Shown: one piece after another, positions 15,731 through 64,000 of the stretch
Layout: every line of letters begins with the position of its first letter
Numbering within the stretch: position 1 is the first letter of the stretch
Source of the DNA: Desulfovibrionaceae bacterium
Lineage (GTDB): Bacteria; Desulfobacterota; Desulfovibrionia; Desulfovibrionales; Desulfovibrionaceae
Direction: 5' to 3'
DNA length: 64,000 nt
Assembly: GCA_040307135.1 (NCBI GenBank)
Contig: JAWRKD010000130.1
Coordinates: forward strand, 4,231-68,230
The notes under the pieces: generated by a model
Seen by the model: only the letters and a program-made list of their open reading frames with translations
Databases searched by the model: none
What the model was told of the DNA's origin: nothing
Made by a program: the position numbers and the translations under genes

Positions 15731-15731
15731 G

Positions 15732-47048: not shown

Positions 47049-47060
47049 AGGAGGAACGCC

Positions 47061-50336: not shown

Positions 50337-50897
50337 TCAATCCACAGTGAACAGGGCCGAGGTGGCGCGGCCTTCCAGCCGGGCGCCCTCCCCTGGTTCG
50401 CTCAAGATGAGCTCCACGCGATGCAGATCGCGGCACAGGCCCTCGACCTCGGCCGGGGTGTCGCCGAAGCGCACCACGTGCCCCGCCTCCAGGCCCCGGT
50501 CCGTGGCCAGCAGGAGCCAGGGCCGGGCCTCTTCCCCGGCGCGGCGGGCAAAGCTTTCGCGCAGGTAGCTGTCCATCTGGCCGTCCGCAGCCTGGGACCC
50601 GGGGCTGCCCACGTTCAGGAAGACCAGGCCGTAGCCCAGGCGCTGGGCCAACCCCAAGGCGTATTCCGCCAGGCGCGGCGAAAAGGACGGGCCGTGCCCC
50701 AGCACGAGGATGCGCTTGCGGCCGGAACCGGCCCGGCGGATCACCCCGCCGGCCAGGGCCTGCTCGCCCGCCTCAGCCAGGGCCAGGGCCTCGGCATAGT
50801 CGTCCAGCCGTTCGCGGCGCATGCCGCCCGGCCGGACCTCAATGCCCCTGGGCCGGGATATCCCGGCCCAGATGCGCCTGGCGAAATTGCGGGGCAT
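50337..50897 (-). CDS. Hypothetical protein, possibly universal-stress-protein-like fold
   Basis: 186-aa ORF with GC-rich third positions. ...RKRILVLGHGPSFSPRLAEYALGLAQRLGYGLVFLNVG...WLLLATDRGLEAGHVVRFGD... The plus-strand 286-aa ORF over the same DNA looks like antisense noise. Confidence 0.5.
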   Translation of the reverse strand: MPRNFARRIWAGISRPRGIEVRPGGMRRERLDDYAEALALAEAGEQALAGGVIRRAGSGRKRILVLGHGPSFSPRLAEYALGLAQRLGYGLVFLNVGSPGSQAADGQMDSYLRESFARRAGEEARPWLLLATDRGLEAGHVVRFGDTPAEVEGLCRDLHRVELILSEPGEGARLEGRATSALFTVD

Positions 50898-51115: not shown

Positions 51116-51132
51116 AACAAAGGCCGTGCCAA
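51116..51132 (-). promoter_or_regulatory. Sigma-54-like promoter (imperfect -12) for the small-protein/TauE operon
   Basis: The minus strand reads TTGGCACGGCCTTTGTT. The -24 element TGGCAC is perfect and the spacing is correct, but -12 is TTGT instead of TTGC. It lies about 42 nt upstream of the ATG at 51074. Confidence 0.3.
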
Positions 51133-51284: not shown

Positions 51285-51319
51285 GTTCGGTATTGCAACG
51301 TGTGTTCGGTTGCGCAACG
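51285..51319. repeat. Tandem 16-nt direct repeats with palindromic TTGC..GCAA cores (candidate regulator binding sites)
   Basis: GTTCGGTATTGCAACG (51285-51300) and GTTCGGTTGCGCAACG (51304-51319) match at 13/16 positions. The second contains the 10-bp palindrome GTTGCGCAAC. A related GTTGCAAC is at 51096-51103. Confidence 0.35.
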
Positions 51320-51338
51320 CGCGGCCAGGGAGGGGGGC

Positions 51339-53348
51339 ATGATCTTCTTCCGAAAAAACGACGAGCCCGGACCTGCGGAGCAGGAGGGCCTGGAAGGCCT
51401 CAAGGCCAAGGCCCACGCCGCGGACCTGCCCGAGGCCACTCGCAAGGCCGTGGACGCCGAGTTGGAACGCCTGGCCAAGACCGACCCTTCCGTAGCCGAG
51501 TACGGCATCGGCGCCAACTATATCGAATGCCTCCTGGACCTGCCCTGGAACCGCCTGACCCAGGACAACCTGGACCTCAAGCGGGCCGAGGCCGTGCTCG
51601 ACGCCAGCCACGCGGGCCTGGGCCAGGTCAAGGACCGGGTCCTGGAGTACCTGGCCCAGCGGACCATGGCCGCGCGCCGCGCCCCCTCGGTGCTCGTGGT
51701 GGACGACGAGTCCATCGCCCGCAACAACCTCCGTCACATCCTCTCCCGCGAGGGCTACCAGGTGGAGGCCGCGGCCAACGGCGAGGAGGCCATGGAAAAG
51801 GTCCGGCGCTGGGAGTTCGACCTCATCGTCACGGACCTCAAGATGGACCACATGGACGGCATGACGCTCCTGGAGGAGGCCAAGAAGGTCTCGCCCGGCA
51901 CCAGCATCATGATCGTCACCGGCTACGCCACCGTGGACACGGCCGTGCAGGCCATGAAGACCGGGGCCGTGCACTACCTCTCCAAACCCATCGAGATCGA
52001 CGAGCTGCGCAACTCGGTGCGCGAGATCCTCAAGGGCAGCGCCCGGCAGTACGGCTCGCGCTCGCCCATCCTCTGTTTCGCGGGCCCCCCGGGCGTGGGC
52101 AAGACCTCGGTGGGCATGGCCGTGGCCGAGGCCCTGGGCCGCAAGTTCTGCCGCCTGTCCCTGGCCGACCTGCGCGACGAGGCCGAGCTGCGGGGCCATC
52201 GCCGGACCTACGTGGGCGCCCTGCCCGGCCGCATCATCCAGGCCATCCGCAGCGTGGGCGTGAAGAACCCCGTGTTCATGCTCGACGAGATGGACAAGAT
52301 CGCCCAGGACGCCAAGGGCGACCCGGCCTCGGCGCTCCTGGAGATCCTGGACCCCGAGCAGAACAGCCGCTTCCTGGACCGCTACCTGGACGTGCCCTTC
52401 GACCTCTCGGCCGTGCTCTTCATCGCCACGGCCAACGGCACGGCGCGGCTGGCCGGGCCGGTGCTCGACCGCATGGAGGTGGTCACCTTCTCGGGCTATT
52501 CCGAGGCCGAGAAGCTGGAAATCTCCCGCCGTTTCCTGGTGCCCCGCCAGCTGCGGGAGCACGGCCTGACCCAGCCCTTCCCGCCCTTCACGGACGAGGC
52601 CCTCTCGCGCATCATCCGCGAACACACCAACGAGGCCGGAGTGCGCGGCCTGGACCGTGAGATCGGCCGGGTCTGCCGCAAGCTGGCCCGATCCTGCCTG
52701 GAAAAGGGCCAGATCGGCTACCTGGGCGACATCACCCCGGAACTGGTGGCCTCGCTCCTGGGCCCGGCGCGCTTCAGCCACGAGGCCGCGGCGGGCGCCC
52801 CGCGGGTGGGTGCGGCCACGGGCCTGGTCTGGTCCGAGGCCGGGGGCGAGCTGGTCTCGGTGGAGGCCTCGCGCATGCCCGGCACGGGCCAGCTCCTGCT
52901 CACCGGCTCCCTGGGCGAGGTGCTCAAGGAATCGGCCCAGATCGCGCTCAGCCACATCCGCGGCAACGCCGGACGCCTGGGCGTGGACCCCGGGTTCTTC
53001 GCGGGCCAGGACATCCACATCCCGGCGGGCGGGGTGAGCAAGGACGGCCCCTCGGCCGGACTGACCATCGCCGTGGCCCTGGTCTCCCTGCTCACCGGCA
53101 GGCCGGTGCGCGCCGACGTGGCCCTGTCCGGCGAAATCTCCCTCTCCGGCCGCGTGCTCCGCGTGGCGGGCGTGCGCGAGAAGCTCCTGGCCGCGGTGCG
53201 CGGCGGAGTGCGCCAGGTTGTGCTGCCCGAGGAGAACGGAGCCGACGTGGAGACCCTGCGCCGCTCCTCCCCGGGCCTGCCCGAGGCCGTCCTGGCCCGG
53301 GACATCGACGCGGCCCTGGCCGCGGCCCTGGAAGGAGGCCACCCGTGA
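51339..53348 (+). CDS. Lon-family ATP-dependent serine protease lacking the N-terminal LAN domain and carrying an inserted response-regulator receiver (REC) domain
   Basis: ATG at 51339 (RBS AGGGAGGGG) gives 669 aa. Lon helical segment LPEATRKAVDAELERL...LDLPWN...GLGQVKDRVLEYLA. Then REC: VLVVDDESIARNNL...DLIVTDLKMDHMDG...IMIVTGY...YLSKP. Then Walker A ILCFAGPPGVGKTS, Walker B VFMLDEMDK, and the Lon_C domain with KDGPSAG (catalytic Ser) and GVREKLLAA (catalytic Lys). Confidence 0.9.
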   Translation: MIFFRKNDEPGPAEQEGLEGLKAKAHAADLPEATRKAVDAELERLAKTDPSVAEYGIGANYIECLLDLPWNRLTQDNLDLKRAEAVLDASHAGLGQVKDRVLEYLAQRTMAARRAPSVLVVDDESIARNNLRHILSREGYQVEAAANGEEAMEKVRRWEFDLIVTDLKMDHMDGMTLLEEAKKVSPGTSIMIVTGYATVDTAVQAMKTGAVHYLSKPIEIDELRNSVREILKGSARQYGSRSPILCFAGPPGVGKTSVGMAVAEALGRKFCRLSLADLRDEAELRGHRRTYVGALPGRIIQAIRSVGVKNPVFMLDEMDKIAQDAKGDPASALLEILDPEQNSRFLDRYLDVPFDLSAVLFIATANGTARLAGPVLDRMEVVTFSGYSEAEKLEISRRFLVPRQLREHGLTQPFPPFTDEALSRIIREHTNEAGVRGLDREIGRVCRKLARSCLEKGQIGYLGDITPELVASLLGPARFSHEAAAGAPRVGAATGLVWSEAGGELVSVEASRMPGTGQLLLTGSLGEVLKESAQIALSHIRGNAGRLGVDPGFFAGQDIHIPAGGVSKDGPSAGLTIAVALVSLLTGRPVRADVALSGEISLSGRVLRVAGVREKLLAAVRGGVRQVVLPEENGADVETLRRSSPGLPEAVLARDIDAALAAALEGGHP

Positions 53349-54792
53349 TCGCCCTGAGCCTGCCCATCCGCCACAAGGTGGCCCTGGGCATCGTGTCCGC
53401 CATGCTGGCCCTGGGGCTCCTGGGGGCCGTGTCCTACCACCACCTGGCCCAGATCGAGGACGCCCTGCGCCTGGCCGAGGTGGTGGACGACCTGGCCAAC
53501 GATATCCTGGAAGTGCGCCGCTACGAGAAGAACTACCTCCTCTATTCCCTGGAGGAGGATCTGATTGAGAGCCTGCGCTACGCCGACCTGGGCCTGGCGA
53601 GCATCGACCGCATCGCCCGGGACGAGACCGCGGTGCACACCTCCCGGACCGGAGCCGACGGCTTCGCCCGCCTGCGAATCCTGCTCCTGCGCTACAAGCA
53701 GGGCGTGCTCGAGCTGGCCGGCAGCAACGGCGCCAAGGCCGAACTGGAGACCGCGCGCAACGAGCTGCGCGAACACGGCAAGGCCCTGGTGGAGACCTCC
53801 CAGGGTTTCGTGGCCGAACAGCGCGAGGGCATCCTGCGCATCGTGAACAGCCTGAAGCAGCAGCTTCTGCTCTCCATCTGCGCGGCCCTGGGCCTGGGCC
53901 TGGCCTTCGCCTGGTTCGTGGGCCGCAACATCATCCAGGCCCTGCGCCTCATCAACCGCTCCACCACCCAGATCGCCCAGGGCGACTTCACGCCCCTGCC
54001 CGTGCCCCGCAGCCGCGACGAGACCCGCAACATGGCCGAGGCCTTCAACCGCATGATCGTGGAGCTGGAGAAGCGCCAGAACCAGCTGGTGCAGGAGAAG
54101 AAGCTGGCCTCCCTGGGCGTGCTCACCTCGGGCATAGCCCACCAGCTGAACAACCCCCTCAACAACATCTCCACCTCCTGCCAGATCCTGCGCGAGGAGG
54201 GGGTGGTCCGGGAGGACGAGTTCACCCGCGAACTCCTGGACAACATCTACCACGAGGTCCTGCGCTCGCGGGACATCGTGAAGGGGCTCCTGGAGTTCTC
54301 GCGGGTCACGGACTTCTCGCTCAAGCCCGTGTCCCTGGACGCCGTGGTGGAGCGCTCCATGCGCCTGGTGGCCAGTCAGCTCCCGGCGGGCGTCGAAACC
54401 GAGCGGAACATCCCGGCCGACCTCCTGGTGCCCATGGACGCCCAGCGCATGCAGGAGGTCTTCCTGAACCTGTTCATCAACGCCATGCAGGCCATGACCC
54501 CGCCGGGCCGCATCACGGTGCGGGCCGAGGCCGACGCGGCCCGGGGCCAGGCCGTGATCCGGGTGGAGGACACGGGCACGGGCATCAAGCCCGAGCACCT
54601 GGGCCGCATCTTCGATCCCTTCTACACCCTGAAGGAGGTGGGCAAGGGCACGGGCCTGGGCCTGTCCATCGTCTTCGGCATCATCAAGAAGCACGGCGGC
54701 ACCATCGTGGCCGAGAACCGCCAGGACCGCCAGGGCGCGGTGTTCACCATCCGCCTGCCCCTGGAGCGGCCGGAGCCCAAGGAGGTCTGCCA

Positions 54793-54796
<4 letters not shown>
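53345..54796 (+). CDS. Sensor histidine kinase (2 TM, HAMP, HisKA, HATPase)
   Basis: 483 aa. The GTG start overlaps the lon stop (GTGA). HAMP IIQALRLINRSTTQIAQGDF...MAEAFNRMIVEL; H-box LTSGIAHQLNNPLNNI; N box FLNLFINAMQAM; G boxes DTGTGI...GKGTGLGLSIV. Confidence 0.9.
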
Positions 54797-56151
<1,355 letters not shown>

Positions 56152-56179
56152 ACCCGTCCCGCGCCTGCGCCCGTCCCCC

Positions 56180-56206
56180 TTGACTCCCCCTTGACCGGGG
56201 TATAAT
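56180..56206 (+). promoter_or_regulatory. Near-consensus sigma-70 promoter upstream of the hydrogenase-like operon
   Basis: TTGACT-N15-TATAAT (56180-56185 and 56201-56206). A second TTGACC is at 56191. It ends 33 nt before the ATG at 56239. The spacer is shorter than the optimal 17. Confidence 0.45.
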
Positions 56207-56238
56207 GGACAGGCGTTTTTTCCCTACGGGAGGGGTCC

Positions 56239-58209
56239 ATGGTTCTCTTCTGTTCCGGGATTGCGGTGCTCCTGGCCGGAGCCCTGTGCGCCTTCATCCT
56301 GGCGCGCCGCGACCAGGCGGCCAACGCCCTGGGGCCCTTGGCTGCGGCCCTGGGCTCGGGCCTCTGCCTGGCGGCCGGCGCCCTGGCCCTGGCAGGCGAC
56401 ACCTGGAGCCTGACCCTGGCCTGGGCCATGCCCGGGGCCTCCTTCCGCCTGGCCCTGGATCCCCTCTCCGGCTTGTTCCTGCTTCCGGGCGGCATTCTGG
56501 GCCTGGCCTCGGCATGGTCCGGCCACGCCGCGCTCAAGCACCACGACGGCGGCCTGGGTCCGCACTGGGGCTTCTTCAACCTGACGCTGGCCGCCTCGGC
56601 CGTGGTCTTCGCGGCCCGCGACTCTCTGCTCTTCCTCCTGGCCTGGGAGGTCATGTCCGTGGCCTCCTTTTTCTGCATCACCCTGGAGGACCGCGAGGAA
56701 CGGGTGCGCTCCGCGGGCTGGCTCTACTTCGTGGCCGCCCACCTGGGGGCCGCGGCCCTGCTGGCCCTGTTCCTGGTGCTGGGCTCGGCCGCGGGCGCGC
56801 AGGACTTCGCCGCCTTCTCCGGCCTGGGACTCACCGGCGGCACGGCCGCGGCCGTGTTCCTCCTGGCCCTGGCCGGGTTCGGCTCCAAGGCCGGATTCTT
56901 CCCCATGCACGTCTGGCTGCCCGAGGCCCATCCAGCCGCGCCGAGCCACATCTCGGCCTATCTTTCGGGCGCGCTCATCAAGGCCGGGCTCTACGGATTC
57001 TTGCGCGTGCTCACCTTCCTGGGGGCGCCGCCCACCTGGTGGGGCGGGCTCTGCCTGATCCTCGGCCTGGCCGGGGCCCTGCTCGGCATCCTCCTGGCCC
57101 TGGGCCAGGCCAACCTGAAGCGCCTGCTGGCCTACTCCAGCGTGGAGAACATGGGCATCATGCTCCTGGGCGTGGGCGTGGGGCTCCTTGGTCTGGCCAA
57201 CGGCGCGCCGCTGGCCGCAGGACTGGGATTCGCCGGGACGCTTCTGCACATGCTCAACCACTGCCTCATGAAGGGCCTGCTCTTCCTGGCCGCGGGCTCG
57301 GTGCTCCACGGCGCGGGCACGGTGCGCATGCCGCTTTTGGGCGGTCTGCTCAAGCGCATGCCGGCCACAGGCACGCTCTTCTGCCTGGGGGCACTGGCCA
57401 TCTGCGGCCTGCCGCCGGGCAACGGATTCTTGAGCGAACTCCTGCTCTACGTGGCCGCCGCGGGCTGGGCCAAGGGCCTGGGTCCGGCCCAGGCCGCCCT
57501 GCTCTGGGCCGCGGTGGTGGGTCTGGCCCTCACCGGCGGGCTGGCGGCCTTCGCCATGGTCCGGGCCTTCGGCCTGACCTTCCTGGGCGAGCCGCGCTCC
57601 GGCGTGGTGGACCACGCCCACGAGCCCGGCCCGGGCGAAGTCGGCCCCGTGGCCGCCCTGGCCCTGCTCTGCGGCCTGGCCGCGGCCGCCGCGCCCCTGA
57701 TCCTGGCCGGCATCTGGCCCGCCGCGGCCCAGCTGGCCCCGGTGGGCGACGCGCCCCTGGCCCTGGGCCGCAGCCTGCTCGGCGCCACGGTGGCGGCCCT
57801 GGCCGCGCTCCTGCTTCTGGTCCTGGCCGCGGCCCTGGCCCGCCGCCTGCTCCTGCGTGGCCGCAGCGTGGCCCAGGCCCCCACCTGGGGCTGCGGCTAC
57901 ACCGCCCCCACGCCCCGCATGCAGTACAGCCCGGCCTCGTTCTCGGCCGAGGCCGAGTCCATGGCCCGGCAGGCCACGGGCTACGTGGAGACGCGCCAGG
58001 ACCCCACGGGCTATTTCCCGGGCCGCTCCGGCTTCGCCTCCGCCTGCCGGGACCGCGTGCTGCACGGCTTGTTCGGCGCGCCCTTCGCCCGGCTGGCCCA
58101 GCTCTGCGACCAGTTCAAGGTCATCCAGCACGGCAGGACCCAGTTCTACATCCTCTACATCTTCGCGGCCCTGCTCGGGGTCCTGGCCTGGAGGGTCTGG
58201 CTGCCGTGA
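56239..58209 (+). CDS. HyfB/NuoL-like antiporter-type membrane subunit
   Basis: 656 aa, polytopic. WEVMSVASFFCI..., FGSKAGFFPMHVWLPEAHPAAPS...SALLSGALIKAGLYG..., LLAYSSVENMGIMLLG are Mrp/NuoL-family motifs. Confidence 0.9.
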   Translation: MVLFCSGIAVLLAGALCAFILARRDQAANALGPLAAALGSGLCLAAGALALAGDTWSLTLAWAMPGASFRLALDPLSGLFLLPGGILGLASAWSGHAALKHHDGGLGPHWGFFNLTLAASAVVFAARDSLLFLLAWEVMSVASFFCITLEDREERVRSAGWLYFVAAHLGAAALLALFLVLGSAAGAQDFAAFSGLGLTGGTAAAVFLLALAGFGSKAGFFPMHVWLPEAHPAAPSHISAYLSGALIKAGLYGFLRVLTFLGAPPTWWGGLCLILGLAGALLGILLALGQANLKRLLAYSSVENMGIMLLGVGVGLLGLANGAPLAAGLGFAGTLLHMLNHCLMKGLLFLAAGSVLHGAGTVRMPLLGGLLKRMPATGTLFCLGALAICGLPPGNGFLSELLLYVAAAGWAKGLGPAQAALLWAAVVGLALTGGLAAFAMVRAFGLTFLGEPRSGVVDHAHEPGPGEVGPVAALALLCGLAAAAAPLILAGIWPAAAQLAPVGDAPLALGRSLLGATVAALAALLLLVLAAALARRLLLRGRSVAQAPTWGCGYTAPTPRMQYSPASFSAEAESMARQATGYVETRQDPTGYFPGRSGFASACRDRVLHGLFGAPFARLAQLCDQFKVIQHGRTQFYILYIFAALLGVLAWRVWLP

Positions 58210-59117
58210 ACGCCCTGACCCTCTTCCATTTCGGCCTGGGCCTGGTCCTGGCCCCGCTGCTCCCGGGCGTCATCAACCGGGTCAAGGCGTTGTTCGGCGG
58301 CCGCAAGGGCAAACCCCTGCTCCAGCTTTACTTCGACCTGGCCAAGCTGGTGCGCAAGGGCGCGGTGTACAGCACCACCAGCACCTGGATCTTCAAGGCC
58401 GGTCCGCTCGTCGGCCTGGCCGCCCTGGTCCTGGCCCTGGCCTTCCTTCCCTTTGCCGGGGTGGACGCCCTCTGCTCCTTCCCGGGCGACGTCTTCCTCT
58501 TCGCCTACCTGCTCGGCCTGGCCCGCTTCTGCACCATGCTGGCAGCCCTGGACACAGGCTCCAGCTTCGAGGGCATGGGCGCGGCCCGCGAGGCCCTGTT
58601 CTCGGCCCTGGCCGAACCGGCCCTGGTCCTGGCCTTCCTCGTCTTCATCAGCCGCTCGGGCTCCCTGACCCTGTCGGCCATGCTCAAGTCCCCGGCCAAC
58701 ATGGACTGGACCCTGCACGGGCCGTCGCTTCTGCTCATCGCCGCGGCCCTGTTCCTGGTGCTCCTTTCGGAGAACTGCCGCATCCCCTTCGACGACCCCA
58801 ACACGCACCTGGAACTGACCATGATCCACGAGGTCATGGTCCTGGACCACAGCGGCCCGGACCTGGCCTTCATCCTCTACGGCGCAAGCCTCAAGCTCTG
58901 GATCTTCGCGGCCCTGCTCGTGAACGCCGTGGCCCCCTGGGGTGTGGCCAGCGACTGGCTGGACGGCCTGGCGGGCCTGGCCTGCGTGTTCCTGGTGGCC
59001 GTGGCCGTGGGCGTCATGGAATCGATCATGGCCCGCTACCGGCTGCCCCAGGTGCCCAAGGCCCTCACCGTGGCCGGGGCCCTGGCCCTCCTGGCCTTGG
59101 TGCTCACCTGGAGATAG
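58206..59117 (+). CDS. HyfC/HycD/NuoH-like membrane subunit
   Basis: GTG at 58206 overlaps the upstream stop (GTGA); 303 aa. ...LLPGVINRVKALFGGRKGKPLLQLYFDLAKL...SENCRIPFDDPNTHLELTMIHEVMVLDHSG are HycD-like motifs. Confidence 0.85.
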   Translation: MNALTLFHFGLGLVLAPLLPGVINRVKALFGGRKGKPLLQLYFDLAKLVRKGAVYSTTSTWIFKAGPLVGLAALVLALAFLPFAGVDALCSFPGDVFLFAYLLGLARFCTMLAALDTGSSFEGMGAAREALFSALAEPALVLAFLVFISRSGSLTLSAMLKSPANMDWTLHGPSLLLIAAALFLVLLSENCRIPFDDPNTHLELTMIHEVMVLDHSGPDLAFILYGASLKLWIFAALLVNAVAPWGVASDWLDGLAGLACVFLVAVAVGVMESIMARYRLPQVPKALTVAGALALLALVLTWR

Positions 59118-59119
59118 CG

Positions 59120-59758
59120 ATGCGGGAACTGCTCGACCCCCTGGCCACCTCGGTCATCCTGGCCAACCTGCTCCTGCTGGCCTGCAGCCGCCTGCGGGTG
59201 GGCGTGACCCTGGCCGCGGTCCAGGGCATCCTCTTGAGCCTCGCGCCCATGGCCCTGCCCCAGGCCGAGCCCAACCTGCAGCTGGCCGCGTTCTGCGTCA
59301 CGGCGCTCTGCGTCAAGGGCCTCATCTTCCCCTGGATGCTCATCCGCACCCTGCAGCGGGTCAAGGCCCGCCGCGAGATGGAGCCGGTGCTCGGCTACAA
59401 CCTCTCGGTGCTGGCGGGCATCGCCGGGCTGGTGCTGGCCATCTGGCTGCGCGGCCAGCTGGGCCTGACCGAGGCCCTGGCCCTGCCCGCCACCGCGGCC
59501 TTCATGACCGGCATCACCGGCTTCCTCCTCCTCATCATCCGGCGCAAGGCCATCACCCAGGTCATCGGCTACCTGGTGGCCGAGAACGGCATCTTCCTCT
59601 TCGGCACCCTGGTTTCGGCCCACGCCGAGATCTGGGTGGAGCTGTCCATGCTCCTGGACCTCTTCGTGGCGGTCTTCGTCATGGGCATCGCCATCCACAA
59701 CATCGGCCGCGAGTTCTCCTCCATCAACACCGACCGCATCGCGTCGCTCAAGGACTGA
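59120..59758 (+). CDS. HyfE-like (NuoK-related) membrane subunit
   Basis: ATG at 59120; 212 aa. Six or seven hydrophobic helices. ...ITQVIGYLVAENGIFLFG... is the HyfE family pattern. Confidence 0.8.
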   Translation: MRELLDPLATSVILANLLLLACSRLRVGVTLAAVQGILLSLAPMALPQAEPNLQLAAFCVTALCVKGLIFPWMLIRTLQRVKARREMEPVLGYNLSVLAGIAGLVLAIWLRGQLGLTEALALPATAAFMTGITGFLLLIIRRKAITQVIGYLVAENGIFLFGTLVSAHAEIWVELSMLLDLFVAVFVMGIAIHNIGREFSSINTDRIASLKD

Positions 59759-59760
59759 CC

Positions 59761-61227
59761 GTGCTGCTGGCCGCCCTCGTGCTCATCCCCCTGGCCGCCG
59801 CAGCGCTGGCCTTCCTGCTCCGGGCCAACGGGCCGCGGCGCGGCCTGCTCCTGGCCGCGTCCCTGGCCCACGCCGCGCTCACGGCGAGCGCCTGGGCCGT
59901 GGCGCCGGCCCCGACCTTCCAGGGCAACCTGGCCCTGGACCCCCTGGGCCGGCTCTTCCTGAGCCTCATCAGCCTGGTCTTCCTGGCCGCGTCCCTTTAC
60001 GGCGTGTCCTACCTGGGCGGCGAGGAATCCGGACCGCGGCAGGACTTCCAGGGCCAGGGCCTGTTCCTGAACGCGCCCGAGGCCCGCTTCACGGCCTGCC
60101 TGCTCCTGTTCCTCTCCTCCATGACCCTCACGGTGCTGGCCCAGAACCTGGCCCTGGTCTGGGTCGGGGTGGAGGCCACCACCCTGGCCAGCGCGCCGCT
60201 CATCTACTTCCACCGCCACGGCCGTTCCCTGGAGGCGGCCTGGAAGTACCTCATGGTCTGCTCCGTGGGCATCGCCCTGGCGCTCATCGGCAACATCCTG
60301 CTCTCCGCGGCCCAGCCCGGCGGTGCGGAAAGCATGCTCCTTCCCGACCTGATCCGGAGCGCCCCGGCCATGCGCCAGCCCTGGCTCAAGGCGGCCTTCG
60401 TCTTCACCCTGGTGGGCTACGGCACCAAGATGGGCCTGGCCCCCATGCACACATGGCTACCCGACGCCCACTCCGAGGCCCCGTCCATGGGCTCGGCGCT
60501 CTTCTCCGGCATCCTGCTCAACTGCGCCTTCCTGGGCATCCTGCGGGTCTATCAGGTGGCCCTGGCCGCGGACCTGGCCCCCTTCTGCCAGGAGCTGTTC
60601 CTGGCCTTCGGGCTTTTCTCCATGGGCCTGGCCGCGGTGTTCATCGTGGGCCAGGGCGACTACAAGCGCATGCTGGCCTACTCCAGCGTGGAGCACATGG
60701 GCCTGCTCGTGCTGGGCCTGGGTCTGGGCGGCGGCGCGGTCTTCGGCTCCATGCTCCACGCCGTGAACCATTCCCTGGCCAAGTCCATGCTCTTCCTGCT
60801 CTCGGGCAACATCCTGACCGTGTACCACTCCAAGTCCACCTACGACGTGCGCGGCCTGACCCGCGCCCTGCCCGCCACGGGCTGGCTCTGGCTCATGGGC
60901 TTTTTGGCCATCACCGGCACCCCGCCCTTCGGCGCGTTCGTCAGCGAATTCACCATTCTGCGCCAGGCCTTCGCCGCCGGCCGCTACGGCGTGGCCGCCG
61001 CGGCCCTGGTCTTCCTGGCCATGATCTTCATCGGCATGTCGGTGTCCGTGCTGCGCATGGCCCAGGGCAACGTGCCCCCGGACGCCCAGCGCCGCCTGAA
61101 GCCCGAGCCCGCGCTCTCCCTGGTCCCGCCCCTGGTCCTGGGCCTGGCGGCCCTGGGCCTGGGCCTGTTCGTCCCGGAAGCCCTGCGCCATCTGCTGGAG
61201 CAGGCCGCCGTGGTGCTGGGAGGCTAG
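59761..61227 (+). CDS. HyfF/NuoM/N-like antiporter-type membrane subunit
   Basis: GTG at 59761; 488 aa. ...VGVEATTLASAPLIYF..., GYGTKMGLAPMHTWLPDAHSEAPS...SALFSGILLNCAFLG..., MLAYSSVEHMGLLVLG. Confidence 0.85.
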   Translation: MLLAALVLIPLAAAALAFLLRANGPRRGLLLAASLAHAALTASAWAVAPAPTFQGNLALDPLGRLFLSLISLVFLAASLYGVSYLGGEESGPRQDFQGQGLFLNAPEARFTACLLLFLSSMTLTVLAQNLALVWVGVEATTLASAPLIYFHRHGRSLEAAWKYLMVCSVGIALALIGNILLSAAQPGGAESMLLPDLIRSAPAMRQPWLKAAFVFTLVGYGTKMGLAPMHTWLPDAHSEAPSMGSALFSGILLNCAFLGILRVYQVALAADLAPFCQELFLAFGLFSMGLAAVFIVGQGDYKRMLAYSSVEHMGLLVLGLGLGGGAVFGSMLHAVNHSLAKSMLFLLSGNILTVYHSKSTYDVRGLTRALPATGWLWLMGFLAITGTPPFGAFVSEFTILRQAFAAGRYGVAAAALVFLAMIFIGMSVSVLRMAQGNVPPDAQRRLKPEPALSLVPPLVLGLAALGLGLFVPEALRHLLEQAAVVLGG

Positions 61228-61229
61228 GC

Positions 61230-62756
61230 ATGCGACACCTGCACACGGAACTGACCCCGGGCAAGGCCGCGCCCCTGGCCGCGGTGCCGCTCCTGGCACC
61301 CGAGACCTTCGCCCTCTGGCTGGCCCACGAGACCCAGGCGGGCTGCCGCCTGGCCTCGCTCTTCGGGCACGCGGCCGGAGACGCCCTGCGCCTTTTCGCC
61401 GTGGTGGCCGAAGACGGCCGGGGCCTGCTCAAGGCCTCCAGCGCGGAGGTCCGGGAAGGGGTCTTCCCCTCGGTGACGCCCGCCTGCCCCCAGGCCCACC
61501 TCTTCGAGCGCGAGATCGCCGAGCAGTTCGGGGTCACGCCCCAGGGCCATCCCTGGCTCAAGCCCGTGCGCTTCGTGCGTCCGCTGCGCGACTTCGGCAA
61601 GGGCCCGGAGTTCACCCGCCAGACCCCGCGCGTGGGCGAGATGGAGTTCTTCCGCGTGGAGGGCGAGGCCGTGCACGAGGTGGCCGTGGGGCCGGTGCAC
61701 GCCGGAGTCATCGAGCCCGGACATTTCCGCTTCCAGTGCCGGGGCGAGACCGTGCTTCACCTGGAAATATCCCTGGGCTACCAGCACCGGGGCGTGGAGG
61801 CCGCGCTCCAGGCCGGGCCCCTGGCCCAGGGCCTGCACCTGGCCGAGACCCTGGCCGGGGACACCACCATCGGCCACGGCTGGGCCTATTGCGCGGTCCT
61901 GGAGGGCCTGGCCGGCATCACGCCGCCGCCGCGGGCCCTGATCCTGCGCGCCGTGCTCCTGGAGCTGGAGCGGCTGGCCAACCACACCGGCGACCTGGGC
62001 GCCCTGGCCGGGGACGTGGGCTTCCTGCCCACCATGTCCTTCTGCGGCCGCCTGCGCGGCGACTGGCTCAACCTCTCGGCCCTGTTCTGCGGCAGCCGCT
62101 TCGGCCGGGGCCTGCTCCTGCCGGGCGGGGTGCGCTTCGAGGCCGACGCCGCGCTCCTGGCCGAGGCCCGGCAGCGCCTGGAGGCCATCTTCACCGACAC
62201 CCGGGGGGCCGTGGAGCTGCTCTTCGCCGCGCCCTCCGTACTGGCCCGCTTCGAAGGCACGGGCACGGTGAGCGCCCAGGCCGCCCGCGACCTGGGACTG
62301 GTGGGGCCGGCGGCCCGGGCCTGCGGCCTGGCCCTGGACGACCGCGCGCATTTCGCCCAGGCCCCCTACGACCGCCTGGCCGTGCCCATGGCCCTGCACG
62401 AGACCGGCGACGTGTACGCCCGCGCCCGGGTGCGCTGGCTGGAGATCCAGAATTCCGTGGCCTTCATCCGTCAGGCCCTGGATCTGCTGGAGGCCGAACA
62501 GGGCCCCCTCCGCGCCGGCCCCCTGCCCGCCCTGGCCCCGGACTCCCTGTGCGTTTCCCTGGCGGAGGCCTGGCGCGGCGAGGTCTGCCACGCGGCCCTC
62601 ACCGGCCCGGACGGCCGCCTGGTGCGCTACAAGGTCACGGACCCCTCGTTCCACAACTGGTCCGGCCTGGCCCTGGCCTTGCGCAACCAGCAGATTTCGG
62701 ACTTCCCGCTCTGCAACAAGAGCTTCAACCTATCCTACTGCGGGTTCGACCTCTAG
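61230..62756 (+). CDS. NuoC-NuoD/HycE-like 'large subunit' lacking the NiFe-ligating cysteine pairs
   Basis: ATG at 61230; 508 aa. The NuoC-like N-terminus reads AHLFEREIAEQFGVTPQGHPWLKP. The HycE-like core reads VGPVHAGVIEPGHFRFQC.GETVLHLEISLGYQHRGVE. The expected N-terminal CxxC site reads ETLAGDTTIGH, and the C-terminal DPCxxC site reads SFNLSYCGFDL. Confidence 0.85.
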   Translation: MRHLHTELTPGKAAPLAAVPLLAPETFALWLAHETQAGCRLASLFGHAAGDALRLFAVVAEDGRGLLKASSAEVREGVFPSVTPACPQAHLFEREIAEQFGVTPQGHPWLKPVRFVRPLRDFGKGPEFTRQTPRVGEMEFFRVEGEAVHEVAVGPVHAGVIEPGHFRFQCRGETVLHLEISLGYQHRGVEAALQAGPLAQGLHLAETLAGDTTIGHGWAYCAVLEGLAGITPPPRALILRAVLLELERLANHTGDLGALAGDVGFLPTMSFCGRLRGDWLNLSALFCGSRFGRGLLLPGGVRFEADAALLAEARQRLEAIFTDTRGAVELLFAAPSVLARFEGTGTVSAQAARDLGLVGPAARACGLALDDRAHFAQAPYDRLAVPMALHETGDVYARARVRWLEIQNSVAFIRQALDLLEAEQGPLRAGPLPALAPDSLCVSLAEAWRGEVCHAALTGPDGRLVRYKVTDPSFHNWSGLALALRNQQISDFPLCNKSFNLSYCGFDL

Positions 62757-62765
62757 GAGCCGCCC

Positions 62766-63515
62766 ATGTTCGCCGCCATCCGCCAGCGCATCCTCCAGAA
62801 GCAACGGACCGTGGGCTTTCCGGCCAAGCCGCCGGTGCTGCCCGCGCGCTTCCGGGGGCGGCCCGAACTCCATGCGGAACGTTGCGTCCAGGGCTGCGCA
62901 GCCTGTCTGGAGGTCTGCCCCACCGGGGCCCTGAGCCTGACCCCCCTGCGCCTGGACCTGGGCCGCTGCACCTTCTGCGGCCGTTGCGCCGAGGCCTGCC
63001 CGGCCGGGGCCCTGGCCTTCACCCGGGACTACGCCCTGGCCGCGCGCAGGCGCGAGGACCTGCTCCTGGAAAACGGGGCCATGCGCCTAGCCGAGGCCCT
63101 GGACGCCCGCAGCCGGAAGCTGTTCGGCCGCTCCCTCAAGCTCCGCCAGGTGAGCGCGGGCGGCTGCAACGCCTGCGAGGCCGACGTGAACGTGCTGACC
63201 ACCGTGGTCTTCGACCTGGGCCGCTTCGGCATCGACTTCGTGGCCTCGCCGCGCCACGCCGACGGCCTCTACGTCACCGGCCCCGTGCCCGAGAACATGC
63301 GCCAGGGCCTGCTCGAGACCTGGCGCGCCCTGCCCGAGCCCCGGCTGTGCATCGCGGCCGGGGCCTGCGCCATCTCCGGCGGCCTGTTCCGGGAGCTCCA
63401 GCCCGGCCAGACCGGCACGGGCGGCCATCTGCCCGTGGACCTTTTCATCCCGGGCTGCCCGCCCCACCCCATCACCGCCCTGCACGGCATGCTCCGGCTC
63501 CTGGGCCGGATCTGA
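62766..63515 (+). CDS. Fusion of a 2x[4Fe-4S] ferredoxin (HycF/NuoI-like) domain and a NuoB/HycG-like small subunit
   Basis: 249 aa. The N-terminus has CVQGCAACLEVCP and CTFCGRCAEACP. The C-terminus has SAGGCNACEAD...ASPRHADGLYVTGP...GACAISGG...IPGCPPHP (NuoB-type cluster ligands). Confidence 0.85.
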   Translation: MFAAIRQRILQKQRTVGFPAKPPVLPARFRGRPELHAERCVQGCAACLEVCPTGALSLTPLRLDLGRCTFCGRCAEACPAGALAFTRDYALAARRREDLLLENGAMRLAEALDARSRKLFGRSLKLRQVSAGGCNACEADVNVLTTVVFDLGRFGIDFVASPRHADGLYVTGPVPENMRQGLLETWRALPEPRLCIAAGACAISGGLFRELQPGQTGTGGHLPVDLFIPGCPPHPITALHGMLRLLGRI

Positions 63516-63783
63516 GCCCTTCCCCGCTTTTCGCCTGCGGAAACAAGCCCCTGGCGGTTCTTTGCGCCAGGGGGAACGCCCGCCCGCAAACCCCGGCCCG
63601 GCCCGCCCCTGCCCGGATCCTGCCCCGGAGTCCCGGGATGAAGAGATGACAAGCTCCCGCGACAACCTGTTTTTGCCGTTTACTCCTGCGCAAATGCTAT
63701 GTACTGTATGATCAATATCACGCGGCAGGCATCCGTCGGCCGCGCAGGCGCAGCCGCGCCCAGCTTCCCTGGCGGGAGACCCC

Positions 63784-64000
63784 ATGGAGATAAAGGAACT
63801 CGGACGGACTCCCATTCCCGGGACCGCCCCTGCAGGGCAGGACCCGCGCTACGAGCCCGAGTTCGAGCAACTCCAGGCCGAAATCGAAAAACTTTCCTCG
63901 GTGAGCGCTGGGGGGGTGGCCGACTGGCCCCGCATCGTGGATCTGGCCTCGCAGGTGCTCTCGACCAAGGCCAAGGACCTCACCGCCGCGGCCTACCTGG
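63784..64000 (+). CDS. tssA: Type VI secretion TssA/ImpA N-terminal domain protein (5' part only)
   Basis: ATG at 63784. MEIKELGRTPIPGTAPAGQDPRYEPEFEQLQAEIEKLSSV..ADWPRIVDLASQVLSTKAKDLTAAAYL matches the ImpA_N pattern (PI....G.D.RY.P.F..L..EI.......DW..V......L...SKDL..A.YL). It runs off the window end. Confidence 0.7.
   Translation, partial: MEIKELGRTPIPGTAPAGQDPRYEPEFEQLQAEIEKLSSVSAGGVADWPRIVDLASQVLSTKAKDLTAAAYL

What the first reader, a model, noticed from the sequence alone, without database searches (positions are those of the whole stretch)
56239..63515. Six-gene group-4-hydrogenase-like complex whose catalytic subunit lacks the NiFe cysteines (Ehr-type)
Gene order and families match hydrogenase-4 / formate-hydrogenlyase-type modules: NuoL-like, NuoH-like, HyfE-like, NuoM/N-like, NuoCD/HycE-like, then NuoI+NuoB-like.

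In the 'large subunit', the site where group-4 enzymes carry the N-terminal C-G-x-C-x-x-x-H motif reads E-T-L-A-G-D-T-T-I-G-H. The C-terminal D-P-C-x-x-C site reads N-L-S-Y-C-G. At most one of the four Ni-Fe ligands is therefore present.

No hyp maturation genes or maturation endopeptidase are in the window. The NuoB-type cluster ligands in the small subunit are intact.

This matches the poorly understood 'energy-converting hydrogenase-related' (Ehr) class, intermediate between membrane hydrogenases and complex I. Its substrate and physiological role are not established. Here it sits directly downstream of the Lon-REC / HK / sigma-54 activator module.
Basis: partly seen in the sequence, partly recalled or inferred. 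Interest (0 to 1): 0.75.

Follow-up and report, generated by a model that had tools for sequence, protein, structure and literature searches.

The report
Hydrogenase-like membrane complex without nickel-iron site
This is a six-gene operon for an "Ehr" complex, a widespread relative of membrane hydrogenases and respiratory complex I that has lost the nickel-iron site; the class was already described and its substrate is still unknown, so this copy is a correct but ordinary example of it.

Summary
Six tightly packed + strand genes (56239-63515) encode HyfB/NuoL-like, HycD/NuoH-like, HyfE-like and HyfF/NuoN-like proteins, a NuoC-NuoD/HycE-like protein, and a NuoI+NuoB-like protein.

None of the four Ni-Fe ligand positions in the large subunit holds Cys. 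They read A209, T212, S502 and G505. The one nearby Cys (C504) lies between the two L2 positions. All 12 Cys for three [4Fe-4S] clusters in the small subunit are kept. No hyp, hycI or fdh gene is in the window.

The interpretation as Ehr-type is supported. The same cassette, gene order and replacement motifs (E-x-x-A-G-D-T-T-x-G-H; SDFPLCNKSFNLSYCG[HF]DL-stop) occur in at least 80 species from many phyla, including Geobacteraceae, where Ehr was first named. In a rough tree, 4-Cys hydrogenases are basal and the window protein sits deep in the Cys-less clade.

Ion-pump residues are conserved, so this is a working redox-driven pump, not a relic. Papers up to 2026 still call its function unknown.

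The sigma-54 module upstream is not a conserved neighbour, and no sigma-54 promoter precedes ehrA. In most other genomes an HTH-PTS-EIIA regulator gene flanks the cassette; it is absent here.

Verdict: new member of a known kind, moderate interest.

The parts
56174..56206 (+). Candidate promoter/operator of the operon. A perfect tandem repeat TCCCCCTTGAC x2 (56174-56195) is followed 5 nt later by TATAAT (56201-56206), 33 nt before the ehrA ATG.
   Evidence: Read directly from the sequence. The repeat was found by the repeat finder. CCCCCTTGAC occurs only at these two places in the window, against 0.37 expected. The promoter scan with 16-18 nt spacers found nothing. No sigma-54 -24/-12 match lies in 55900-56239. 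Function is inferred, not shown.
56239..58209 (+). ehrA: HyfB/HycC/NuoL-like antiporter-type membrane subunit, 656 aa.
   Evidence: PF00361, 1e-48. Best NCBIfam hit is hydrogenase-4 subunit B, 5.6e-150, below the cut-off. E137, K217, K248, H337, H341, K345 and E400 are conserved in at least 90% of 59 orthologues.
58206..59117 (+). ehrB: HycD/NuoH-like membrane subunit, 303 aa. It links the redox arm to the membrane arm.
   Evidence: PF00146, 3.6e-31. PDB hits in order: HycD 2.9e-28, MbhM 6.5e-19, MbsM 8e-12, NuoH 2e-6. The loop ...EN-RiP-DDPnTHLELTMIHEvMvLDhsGp... and E189, R192, D196, D197, E203 and E209 are conserved.
59120..59758 (+). ehrC: HyfE-like small membrane subunit, 212 aa, with a NuoK-like C-terminal part.
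   Evidence: NCBIfam hydrogenase-4 membrane subunit, 7e-23. PF00420, 8e-4, below the cut-off. E155 and E174 are conserved. No PDB relative by sequence.
59761..61227 (+). ehrD: HyfF/NuoN-M-like antiporter-type membrane subunit, 488 aa.
   Evidence: PF00361, 2e-51. Best NCBIfam hit is hydrogenase-4 subunit F, 6e-107. E138, K223, H333 and K341 are conserved.
61230..62756 (+). ehrL: NuoC+NuoD / HycE-like 'large subunit', 508 aa, without NiFe ligands. The ligand positions read A209, T212, S502 and G505. The Ehr signature is E206-T-L-A-G-D-T-T-I-G-H216 and S490-DFPLCNKSFNLSYCGFDL508-stop.
   Evidence: PF00329 + PF00346, no PF00374 hit. HycE alignment. Foldseek top hit is HycE 7z0s_E, TM 0.82. Motif conservation in 120 + 81 + 150 homologues. 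NJ tree.
62766..63515 (+). ehrS: fusion of a NuoI/HycF-like 2x[4Fe-4S] domain (residues about 1-105) with a NuoB/HycG-like domain (about 114-249) that carries the proximal [4Fe-4S] ligands.
   Evidence: PF01058, 3.5e-23, plus Fer4 families. HycG 2e-33 and HycF 2.5e-19. C40, 44, 47, 51, 68, 71, 74, 78, 134, 137, 201 and 231 are conserved in at least 93% of 68 orthologues.
63548..63573 (.). G+C-rich hairpin 33 nt after the ehrS stop; a possible end of the transcription unit.
   Evidence: Terminator-like site reported on the - strand. On the + strand the same stem has no T run (sequence). The role is uncertain.

Best explanation
This is an Ehr-type (energy-converting-hydrogenase-related) complex. 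It is a six-subunit membrane enzyme descended from a group-4 [NiFe]-hydrogenase that has lost the Ni-Fe site but kept everything else.

Shown here:
- The large subunit has no Cys at any of the four ligand positions.
- Those positions carry a strictly conserved polar motif instead. G210-D211 and H216 are found in every one of 81 orthologues. S502, Y503, G505 and D507 are kept in at least 95% of them. The protein ends at the position where mature HycE ends.
- The small subunit keeps all ligands for three [4Fe-4S] clusters.
- The four membrane subunits keep the Glu/Lys/His residues typical of the antiporter-like, NuoH-like and NuoK-like subunits of complex I and FHL.
- The cassette is an autonomous unit with no partner dehydrogenase beside it.

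Inferred mechanism:
- A soluble low-potential carrier, most likely reduced ferredoxin, docks on the NuoI-like domain of EhrS.
- Electrons pass through two [4Fe-4S] clusters to the proximal NuoB-type cluster.
- There they reduce a non-H2 acceptor in the Asp/His/Ser/Thr-lined pocket at the EhrL-EhrS-EhrB interface.
- Reduction and protonation in that pocket drive H+ or Na+ export through EhrB/EhrC and the two antiporter-like subunits EhrD and EhrA. The reverse reaction is also possible.

My estimates:
- Ehr class: about 0.9.
- Working redox-coupled ion pump: about 0.65.
- Ferredoxin as donor: about 0.5.
- Acceptor in this menaquinone-type organism is menaquinone: about 0.3. This is the single most likely acceptor, but it is not established.

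Transcription here probably starts at a TATAAT box preceded by a tandem 11-nt repeat, not at a sigma-54 promoter.
For: Identity and anatomy.

Loss of ligands: HycE alignment and the shared C-terminal frame with 4-Cys relatives. The window protein has no PF00374 hit, while the 4-Cys relatives P0222 and P0229 have one.

Family-wide conservation at about 55-60% identity across Planctomycetota, Verrucomicrobiota, Acidobacteriota, Desulfobacterota, Spirochaetota, Elusimicrobiota, Cloacimonadota and others.

Synteny: the order A-B-C-D-L-S holds in nearly all of 80 loci.

Electron wire: 12 of 12 cluster cysteines are conserved. EhrS aligns with HycG and HycF.

Pump residues are conserved. EhrB is nearest to HycD. 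The EhrL fold is nearest to HycE, then NuoCD.

Tree: 4-Cys sequences are basal and the window protein is nested in the Cys-less clade.

dN/dS against an 84%-identical relative is 0.24-0.35.

No conserved neighbour other than a regulator gene.

Literature: Ehr is defined by the lack of NiFe ligands and is suspected to couple cytoplasmic redox reactions to charge translocation (PMC6349859). Ehr proteins are abundant in formate-grown Geobacter (PMC7894505). Ehr is not induced by H2 in Nitrospira (PMC12342949).
Against: No biochemical datum exists for any Ehr. Donor, acceptor, ion and direction are all inferred.

The AF2 model is unreliable exactly at the pocket (pLDDT below 50 for residues 153-164 and 491-508), so its geometry is unknown.

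Against quinone:
- EhrB and EhrL are closer to the quinone-independent FHL/MBH subunits than to NuoH/NuoD.
- The complex I Tyr87 position is Gly210 (alignment to Nqo4).
- Ehr-bearing Riflemargulisbacteria reportedly lack quinone biosynthesis (PMC6349859).

The dN/dS values are only moderately low.

The promoter assignment rests on a 15-nt spacer, which the scan tool does not accept.
Confidence: 0.6

Rival explanations
1. It is a true H2-evolving or H2-oxidising [NiFe]-hydrogenase (Hyf/FHL-type), as the database label 'Ni,Fe-hydrogenase III large subunit' says, with ligands that are merely shifted.
For: JGI names the protein this way. The overall fold and best PDB hit are HycE. One Cys (C504) lies inside the L2 region.
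Against: None of the four ligand positions is Cys in any of 81 orthologues. The 4-Cys relatives share the same C-terminal frame, which fixes the register. C504 is Ala or Ser in several orthologues and in a whole sister clade. There is no PF00374 hit. No hyp or hycI gene is in the window. The protein ends where mature HycE ends, so there is no extension for endopeptidase processing (the HycE cleavage site after Arg537 is from my own knowledge).
Confidence: 0.02
2. It is a decaying, non-functional relic of a hydrogenase operon. This is stated for Geobacter sulfurreducens KN400 in PMC13194489.
For: The catalytic metal site is lost. One paper treats Ehr as non-functional and its mutations as drift. 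No phenotype has been published.
Against: All six reading frames are intact with tight or overlapping junctions. EhrL is 55-60% identical across distant phyla, with invariant replacement motifs. All 12 Fe-S ligands and the pump residues are conserved. The cassette is syntenic in at least 80 species, and more than 600 matches were found. dN/dS is below 0.36. Ehr proteins are abundant in Geobacter proteomes.
Confidence: 0.03
3. It is the membrane module of a formate-oxidising complex (FDH-Ehr), taking electrons from a formate dehydrogenase rather than from ferredoxin.
For: Proposed for Margulisbacteria and Saganbacteria. Ehr subunits are most abundant in formate-grown G. sulfurreducens. The nearest characterised relative is formate hydrogenlyase.
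Against: No fdh, hycB-like or nuoEF-like gene lies in the 64-kb window or beside the cassette in the 80 loci. EhrS has no extra docking domain. The acceptor would still be unknown.
Confidence: 0.1
4. It is an MBS/Mbx-like sulfane-sulfur or disulfide reductase. The proximal cluster, with C495 and C504 or other conserved Cys (C170, C272, C287), would reduce an S-S bond.
For: MBS/Mbx is the one characterised hydrogenase-derived complex without a NiFe site. MbsL, MbsJ and MbsM are detectable relatives. Five Ehr-clade cysteines are conserved in EhrL. The window organism looks like a sulfate-reducer relative (inference).
Against: C495 and C504 are replaced (by N, V, A or S) in several orthologues, including Geomonas. 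Both are absent from the sister Ehr clade, which keeps the rest of the motif. Similarity to Mbs subunits is weaker than to FHL and MBH subunits. Ehr occurs in aerobes such as Nitrospira and Methylacidiphilum. No Mrp-type extra subunits are present.
Confidence: 0.08

Closest known systems
Ehr (Ech-hydrogenase-related / energy-converting-hydrogenase-related) complex of Geobacter sulfurreducens, GSU0739-0745 (EhrA-1, EhrA-2, B, C, D, L, S)
   Same: Same subunit families in the same order. The large subunit lacks NiFe cysteines and the small subunit has Fe-S ligands.
   Different: The Geobacter and Holophaga type has a second NuoL-like gene, giving seven genes (PMC7894505 and PMC13194489 list EhrA-1 and ehrA-2). 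The window has six. Most Geobacter-type loci have the HTH-EIIA gene nearby; the window does not. I could not fetch the G. sulfurreducens sequences themselves.
E. coli formate hydrogenlyase-1 membrane-bound hydrogenase-3 (HycC, D, E, F, G; PDB 7z0s) and hydrogenase-4 (HyfB-I)
   Same: Best structural and sequence relatives of EhrL (2.7e-50, TM 0.82), EhrS (HycG 2e-33, HycF 2.5e-19) and EhrB (HycD 2.9e-28). EhrA, EhrC and EhrD match the HyfB, HyfE and HyfF models best. The large subunit is a NuoC-NuoD fusion, as in HycE.
   Different: No NiFe ligands. HycF and HycG are fused into one protein. There is no HycB or FdhF partner, no hyc/hyp maturation genes nearby, and no C-terminal extension for HycI.
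4-Cys group-4 hydrogenases nearest to Ehr (representatives P0197, P0222, P0229, P0235, P0242). They are probably the 'group 4f' that PMC10284858 places next to Ehr.
   Same: 37-41% identical to EhrL. Same length and NuoC-NuoD fusion. Same C-terminal frame PDFPL-x-NKSF-x-L-x-Y-x-x-x-D-[RL]-stop. Basal to Ehr in the NJ tree.
   Different: They keep R-x-C-G-x-C-x-x-x-H and L-C-Y-[SA]-C, and they hit PF00374. The assignment to subgroup 4f was not tested here.
Ech hydrogenase (EchA-F) of Methanosarcina barkeri and Desulfovibrio
   Same: A six-subunit, ferredoxin-dependent, ion-translocating minimal member of the superfamily. It is the model for the proposed donor side.
   Different: Ech has one antiporter-like subunit, separate NuoB-, NuoC-, NuoD- and NuoI-like proteins, and a NiFe site. 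Ehr has two antiporter-like subunits plus HyfE, fused C-D and I-B proteins, and no NiFe site. No Ech sequence was compared directly here.
MBS/Mbx of Pyrococcus furiosus (PDB 6u8y)
   Same: A hydrogenase-derived respiratory complex that has lost NiFe catalysis and reduces another substrate while pumping ions.
   Different: More distant (MbsL 3.7e-16, MbsM 8e-12). MBS has a 13-subunit Mrp-type membrane arm and is archaeal. The Ehr pocket motif is different.
Respiratory complex I (Nuo/Nqo), especially 11-subunit forms lacking NuoEFG
   Same: Homologous NuoB, C, D, H, I, K, L, M and N modules. Conserved pump residues. Nqo4 Asp139 aligns with the invariant D262.
   Different: The quinone-ligand Tyr87 position is Gly210. 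Subunits score far lower against Nuo than against Hyc (NuoH 2e-6). There is no NuoA, NuoJ or NuoEFG. All Nuo NCBIfam scores are far below the cut-offs.

Membership tests
Ehr (energy-converting / Ech-hydrogenase-related complex) | Gene cluster of group-4-hydrogenase type: antiporter-like, NuoH-like and HyfE-like membrane subunits plus a large and a small subunit. | tested here: met
   Pfam and NCBIfam assignments of the six genes. Operon structure.
Ehr (energy-converting / Ech-hydrogenase-related complex) | The large subunit lacks the L1 and L2 CxxC motifs that bind Ni-Fe. | tested here: met
   A209, T212, S502 and G505 sit at the four positions. The same holds in 81 orthologues.
Ehr (energy-converting / Ech-hydrogenase-related complex) | The small subunit retains the proximal [4Fe-4S] ligands. 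| tested here: met
   C134, C137, C201 and C231 align with the HycG and NuoB ligands and are conserved.
Ehr (energy-converting / Ech-hydrogenase-related complex) | Orthology with the Geobacter Ehr cluster, where the name was coined. | tested here: met
   Geobacteraceae and Geomonas loci (L027, L029, L030, L045) are syntenic, 53-55% identical, and share the signature motifs. G. sulfurreducens itself was not available.
Ehr (energy-converting / Ech-hydrogenase-related complex) | Absence of Ni and of hydrogenase activity in the protein. | not testable with these tools
   Needs metal analysis and enzyme assays.
Group 4 membrane-bound [NiFe]-hydrogenase (Hyc/Hyf/Ech/Coo/Mbh) | Four Cys ligands: L1 R-x-C-G-x-C-x-x-x-H and L2 (D-P-)C-x-x-C. 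| tested here: not met
   No PF00374 hit, whereas the 4-Cys relatives hit it.
Group 4 membrane-bound [NiFe]-hydrogenase (Hyc/Hyf/Ech/Coo/Mbh) | Maturation machinery (HypA-F, with or without an endopeptidase) available. | tested here: inconclusive
   None in the 64-kb window. The rest of the genome cannot be seen.
Group 4 membrane-bound [NiFe]-hydrogenase (Hyc/Hyf/Ech/Coo/Mbh) | Homologous subunit set and fold. | tested here: met
   HycE, HycD, HycG and HycF are the best PDB matches.
Respiratory complex I (NADH or ferredoxin:quinone oxidoreductase) | NuoD quinone-binding Tyr (T. thermophilus Nqo4 Y87) and His38 in the beta1-beta2 loop. | tested here: not met
   In the ungapped Nqo4 alignment, Y87 aligns with G210 and H38 with I161. 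H165 lies four residues away, so the His position is ambiguous. D139 aligns with the invariant D262.
Respiratory complex I (NADH or ferredoxin:quinone oxidoreductase) | Subunits NuoA and NuoJ, and NuoEFG or an equivalent input module. | tested here: not met
   Only six genes. None matches NuoA, J, E, F or G, and none is found in the flanks.
MBS/Mbx sulfane-sulfur reductase | Mrp-type multi-subunit membrane arm (MbsA-H type) with MbsL, MbsJ and MbsN. | tested here: not met
   Six-gene Hyf-type arm. Mbs subunits are weaker hits than FHL and MBH subunits.

The most novel reading that the evidence does not exclude
The former Ni-Fe pocket has been rebuilt into a new catalytic or ion-binding site that is under strong selection. 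G210-D211 and H216 are found in all 81 orthologues. T/S212, N496-K497-S498, S502, Y503, G505 and D507 are kept in at least 95%, apart from Thr/Ser swaps and rare exceptions at 212, and the C-terminus is fixed. On this reading Ehr is an uncharacterised, very widespread respiratory enzyme with chemistry different from hydrogenase, complex I and MBS. It occurs in more than 600 species across at least 10 phyla, aerobes and anaerobes. In most lineages it would be switched by a dedicated HTH-EIIA(Ntr)-type regulator that reads the PTS-Ntr phosphorylation state. The window would then be one tractable example, from a cultivable-type Desulfovibrionaceae relative, with a different regulatory region.
Probability: 0.25. 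Interest if true: 0.75.

Novelty: new member of a known kind. Interest (0 to 1): 0.35.

Why it matters
Ehr complexes are common in environmental bacteria: Geobacter, Nitrospira, Planctomycetes, Verrucomicrobia, Acidobacteria and candidate phyla. Databases routinely label them hydrogenase-3/4 or NADH dehydrogenase, so metabolic reconstructions wrongly credit these organisms with H2 production or an extra complex I.

Recognising this operon as Ehr corrects that label here.

The family-level results add testable handles to a question that papers up to 2026 still call open:
- The replacement motif is invariant.
- The Fe-S wire and pump residues are conserved.
- The remaining cysteines are dispensable.
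- The 4-Cys relatives are basal in the tree.
- An HTH-EIIA regulator is usually linked to the cassette.

These results also argue against the published view that Ehr is non-functional. This particular copy is not special in itself.

Tried and rejected
1. AF2 model of EhrL from a 26-sequence alignment. The overall model is good (pLDDT 82.8), but the beta1-beta2 loop (153-164) and the C-terminus (491-508) are below 50. Coordinates are not exposed to scripts. So I could not measure whether D211, H216, C495, C504 and H/F506 cluster.

2. Sigma-54 control. The pattern TGGCAC-N5-TTGC with up to 2 mismatches gives 40 hits against 77 expected by chance. None lies between the activator gene and ehrA. 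I rejected a direct sigma-54 promoter. The only 1-mismatch hit near the module (51117-51131, - strand) has GT instead of GC at -12 and faces the usp gene.

3. The canonical sigma-70 scan found nothing in 55900-64000. The TTGACT-15 nt-TATAAT arrangement I report was read by eye and falls outside that tool's spacer range.

4. Search for a partner enzyme. I clustered all ORFs of 90 aa or more from 80 loci with 10-kb flanks. Only the Ehr genes, their antisense shadow ORFs and the HTH-EIIA gene recur. Generic HK and ABC-ATPase clusters occur in 11 loci or fewer. No dehydrogenase is conserved.

5. Cys2 metal site or disulfide idea. It is weakened because C495 and C504 are substituted in several orthologues and absent in the sister clade.

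6. EhrC has no solved relative by sequence.

7. Literature searches for GSU0737, GSU0738 and GSU0746 (possible regulator genes) returned nothing.

8. The organism could not be named. The exact protein occurs only in metagenome contigs, and the best GTDB species hit is 60% identical. 'Desulfovibrionaceae-like' is an inference from the named relative Fundidesulfovibrio (62%), the DHQS-II/aldolase aromatic pathway and 70% G+C.

Full report
**1. What is at 56239-63515**

The region holds six + strand genes with overlapping or nearly abutting junctions:
- ehrA 56239-58209
- ehrB 58206-59117 (GTG start overlapping the ehrA stop)
- ehrC 59120-59758
- ehrD 59761-61227
- ehrL 61230-62756
- ehrS 62766-63515

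A public metagenome contig that carries the identical large subunit was called independently. It gives six products of the same lengths in the same order: 656, 303, 212, 488, 508 and 249 aa. Third-position G+C is about 0.93 in a 70% G+C window where it was measured, in the ehrA and ehrS frames.

- EhrA and EhrD are PF00361 antiporter-like proteins. Their best models are hydrogenase-4 HyfB (5.6e-150) and HyfF (6e-107).
- EhrB is PF00146 (NuoH/HycD).
- EhrC matches the HyfE model (7e-23).
- EhrL is a NuoC (PF00329) + NuoD (PF00346) fusion.
- EhrS is a 2x[4Fe-4S] ferredoxin-like domain fused to PF01058 (NuoB).
- Every NCBIfam score is below the curated cut-off, so none of the six is an equivalog of a named Hyf, Hyc or Nuo subunit.

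**2. The metal-site claim**

phmmer against PDB sequences gives E. coli HycE (7z0s_E) as the best hit (2.7e-50). T. thermophilus Nqo4 (3.5e-34) and P. furiosus MbhL (5.9e-32) follow.

In the HycE alignment, 'DRVCGICGFAH' pairs with 'ETLAGDTTIGH'. The two L1 cysteines are therefore A209 and T212. 'SLDPCY' pairs with 'SFNLSY', so the first L2 cysteine is S502.

The HMMER alignment stops at Y503. The register of the last residues is fixed by distant relatives that still have four cysteines and share the same C-terminal frame. '...PDFPLINKSFELCYSCTDR' aligns with '...SDFPLCNKSFNLSYCGFDL'. The second L2 cysteine is therefore G505, and C504 occupies the 'x' position between the two ligands.

None of the four ligand positions is Cys.

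EhrL ends at the residue aligned with HycE Arg537. From my own knowledge, the HycI protease cuts after that residue. So EhrL has no extension to process.

The window protein does not hit PF00374 (NiFeSe_Hases). The 4-Cys relatives P0222 and P0229 do.

**3. The small subunit and the rest of the window**

EhrS residues 114-247 align with HycG (2e-33) and residues 1-103 with HycF (2.5e-19). The NuoB/HycG-type ligands are C134, C137, C201 and C231. The eight cysteines of the NuoI-like domain are C40/44/47/51 (spacing Cx3Cx2Cx3CP) and C68/71/74/78. All twelve are present here and in at least 93% of 68 orthologues.

Pfam scans of the other ORFs of the window that were scanned found the following:
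- tryptophan and aromatic amino-acid biosynthesis, Amt/GlnK, MetK and PanC
- GGDEF proteins, a DsbA-like protein and phospholipases
- a TonB-dependent receptor
- flagellar genes (flagellin, FlgD, FlgE, FlgK, FlgL, FliD)
- TauE and a Usp protein
- the REC-AAA-Lon / HAMP-HK / REC-sigma54-HTH_8 trio
- downstream of ehrS, a TssA/ImpA_N gene

No Hyp, HycI or formate dehydrogenase family was found.

**4. Is it the known Ehr class?**

A search of 5.8 billion proteins returned thousands of relatives. The best 120 are about 58-84% identical and come from Holophaga, Myxococcales, Desulfuromonadales, Verrucomicrobia, Planctomycetes and Fundidesulfovibrio. In them the two replacement motifs are almost invariant: E-T-[LV]-A-G-D-T-[TS]-[IV]-G-H and SDFPLCNKSF[ND]LSYCG[HF]DL-stop.

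The 80 best loci span Planctomycetota, Verrucomicrobiota, Acidobacteriota, Desulfobacterota (including Geobacteraceae, Geomonas, Pelobacter, Desulfovibrionaceae and Desulfomicrobium), Spirochaetota, Elusimicrobiota, Cloacimonadota, Fibrobacterota, Hydrogenedentota, Riflebacteria and Omnitrophota.

tblastn with the six window proteins shows the order A-B-C-D-L-S in essentially every locus long enough to hold it. A subset (Geobacter, Holophaga, some Verrucomicrobia) has a second NuoL-like gene. This matches the seven-gene GSU0739-0745 cluster with EhrA-1 and ehrA-2 named in PMC7894505 and PMC13194489.

The Geobacteraceae loci carry ET[AIV]AGDTT[IV]GH and SDFPL[CN]NKSFNLSYCGFDL. The window operon is therefore an orthologue of the Geobacter-type Ehr.

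The literature defines Ehr exactly by these features. As late as 2025 it still states that the function is unknown (PMC6349859, PMC10284858, PMC12342949).

**5. Place in the family tree**

phmmer against 1.84 billion 50%-identity representatives found 909 clusters at E <= 1e-30. I classified the best 150 by the four ligand columns.

Five sequences keep all four cysteines: P0197, P0222, P0229, P0235 and P0242, at 37-41% identity. Of the other 98 full-length sequences, about ten have a Cys at one ligand column (nearly always 209) and the rest have none.

I built a rough neighbour-joining tree from 351 columns and 103 full-length sequences. It has no bootstrap. HycE and MbhL fragments taken served as outgroups.

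The 4-Cys sequences form a basal grade. Next comes a Cys-less clade with the 'SGD ... SY[SA]G' motifs and Ile/Val at position 495. Nested further in is the 'AGDT ... SYCG' clade that contains the window protein.

This agrees with PMC10284858, which places Ehr next to group 4f. I did not test the 4f assignment myself.

Two consequences follow:
- Ehr looks like a derivative of a real hydrogenase.
- C495 and C504 are features of one subclade, not of Ehr as a whole. Even within the subclade they are replaced in some species: C495 is present in 77 of 81 sequences and C504 in 76 of 81, and Geomonas limicola has Asn at 495.

What is universal is G210-D211, H216, N496-K497-S498-F499, L501, Y503, G505 and D507. 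The former metal site has become a conserved polar pocket.

**6. Is it functional, and how would it work?**

Several lines argue for a working enzyme:
- EhrL shows cross-phylum identity of 55-60% with invariant motifs.
- All cluster ligands are conserved.
- The canonical charged residues of the membrane subunits are conserved. In EhrA these are E137, K217, K248, H337, H341, K345 and E400. In EhrD they are E138, K223, H333 and K341. In EhrB they are E189, R192, D196, D197, E203 and E209. In EhrC they are E155 and E174.
- dN/dS against an 84%-identical relative is 0.24-0.35.

These results contradict the statement in PMC13194489 that Ehr is non-functional.

EhrB is closest to HycD (2.9e-28), then MbhM and MbsM, and only distantly to NuoH (2e-6). 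The EhrL model's best structural match is HycE (TM 0.82), ahead of E. coli NuoCD.

Only a regulator gene is conserved beside the cassette; no dehydrogenase is. The simplest donor is therefore a soluble carrier docking on the NuoI-like domain. This is how ferredoxin is thought to work with Ech and MBH (established knowledge of those enzymes; inference here).

My preferred mechanism:
- Electrons pass from ferredoxin through two [4Fe-4S] clusters to the proximal cluster.
- They then reduce an acceptor in the polar pocket at the EhrL/EhrS/EhrB interface.
- This is coupled to H+ or Na+ movement through EhrB/C/D/A.

The acceptor is not established. Menaquinone is my single best guess for this organism (about 0.3).

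Against menaquinone:
- The complex I Tyr87 position is Gly210.
- The membrane anchor is of the FHL type.
- Quinone-less Margulisbacteria reportedly carry Ehr (PMC6349859).

The AF2 model cannot help, because the pocket loops have pLDDT below 50.

**7. Regulation and context**

The upstream trio is real. However, HK-like or sigma-54-activator-like sequence occurs within 10 kb in only about a dozen of the 80 other loci, and all three proteins match in only 3. It is absent beside the cassette of the cultured relative Fundidesulfovibrio butyratiphilus.

The 87-bp gap before ehrA has no -24/-12 element. It contains a perfect tandem repeat TCCCCCTTGAC x2 (56174-56195; the only copies in the window). 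TATAAT follows 5 nt later. No terminator lies between the activator gene and ehrA, so read-through is possible.

The trio lies just downstream of a flagellar gene block. It could equally serve those genes or the divergent usp gene. This was not tested.

In contrast, 43 of 80 loci carry a gene for an HTH_17 + PTS_EIIA_2 protein. It usually ends within a few bases to a few hundred bases upstream of ehrA on the same strand. In L007 it occupies 4233-4943 and ehrA starts at 4944. Its G-x-G-I-A-I-P-H phospho-histidine motif is conserved in 40 orthologues. The window has no such gene.

This points to control of Ehr by a PTS-Ntr-type phosphorelay in most lineages. I found no mention of this in the papers I searched.

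**8. Verdict**

Ehr has been described since the mid-2000s (Coppi 2005 and Marreiros 2013, cited from memory and through the papers read). It is repeatedly noted in genome papers, and this very protein is already in public databases, mislabelled as 'Ni,Fe-hydrogenase III large subunit'. So the finding is a new member of a known kind.

Its interest lies in the unresolved function of the class, not in anything particular to this copy. I score it 0.35.

The most novel reading still open is that the conserved polar pocket is a new catalytic or ion site of a major, overlooked respiratory enzyme. I give that about 0.25 probability, and it would deserve about 0.75 if true.

Noticed in passing
window 56174-56206: A perfect tandem 11-nt repeat TCCCCCTTGAC x2, one helical turn apart, is followed 5 nt later by TATAAT, 33 nt before the ehrA start codon. 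The 10-mer occurs nowhere else in the window. It looks like an activator- or repressor-binding site overlapping a -35 region.
   Followed up: partly
L007 4233-4943 and the equivalent position in 43 of 80 genome loci (e.g. L001, L002, L006, L008, L014, L036): A gene for an HTH_17 + PTS_EIIA_2 (PtsN-like) protein with a conserved GxGIAIPH phospho-His motif sits directly upstream of ehrA in many phyla. It is divergent in some Geobacter-type loci. It is absent from the window and from Fundidesulfovibrio. It is probably a dedicated regulator linking Ehr to the PTS-Ntr phosphorelay. None of the papers I read mentions it.
   Followed up: partly
window 51300-56151: Three genes with overlapping stop and start codons: a REC-AAA-Lon_C fusion (a response-regulator receiver fused to a Lon protease), a HAMP-HisKA-HATPase kinase, and a REC-sigma54-HTH_8 activator. 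The receiver-Lon fusion is an unusual architecture. The module lies between a flagellar gene block and ehr, and its target is unknown.
   Followed up: partly
window 51117-51131 (- strand): TGGCACGGCCTTTGT, one mismatch from the sigma-54 consensus (GT instead of GC at -12), lies about 220 nt upstream of the divergently transcribed Usp-family gene (50340-50897, - strand). It is a weak candidate target of the neighbouring sigma-54 activator. Hits of this quality are not above chance.
   Followed up: no
EhrL residues 170, 272, 287 (window 61737-61739, 62043-62045, 62088-62090): Three further cysteines are conserved in Ehr large subunits: C170 in 81 of 81 sequences, C272 in 78 of 81, and C287 in 79 of 81. 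HycE has Val, Phe and Thr at these positions. Their spatial relation to the pocket could not be assessed.
   Followed up: partly
Representatives P0133, P0137, P0148, P0153, P0162, P0174, P0177, P0182, P0249: Some Ehr large subunits keep or regained a Cys at the first L1 position ('C-G-D') while lacking the other three ligands. They may be intermediate states in the loss of the site.
   Followed up: no
window 63784-64000 (continues beyond the window; L081 12555-14477): A TssA/ImpA_N + VasJ type VI secretion protein gene starts 270 nt after ehrS. In the longer contig it is followed by glycosyltransferase and polysaccharide genes rather than a full T6SS cluster.
   Followed up: no
window 39700-48830: A flagellar block (flagellin, FlgD, FlgE, FlgK, FlgL-like flagellin-family protein, FliD) has clearly lower G+C (0.60-0.67) than the rest of the window (about 0.70) and strong positive AT skew.
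   Followed up: no
window 14762-16655 (- strand): 3-dehydroquinate synthase II (PF01959) lies next to a DeoC/LacD-family aldolase. This is the archaeal-type route into aromatic amino-acid synthesis, within a long aro/trp gene run (5108-16655). It is consistent with a Desulfovibrio-like organism.
   Followed up: no
window 63548-63573: A 9-bp G+C-rich hairpin lies after the ehrS stop. The scan scores it as a terminator only on the - strand (T run on that side), although the neighbouring genes are on the + strand.
   Followed up: no
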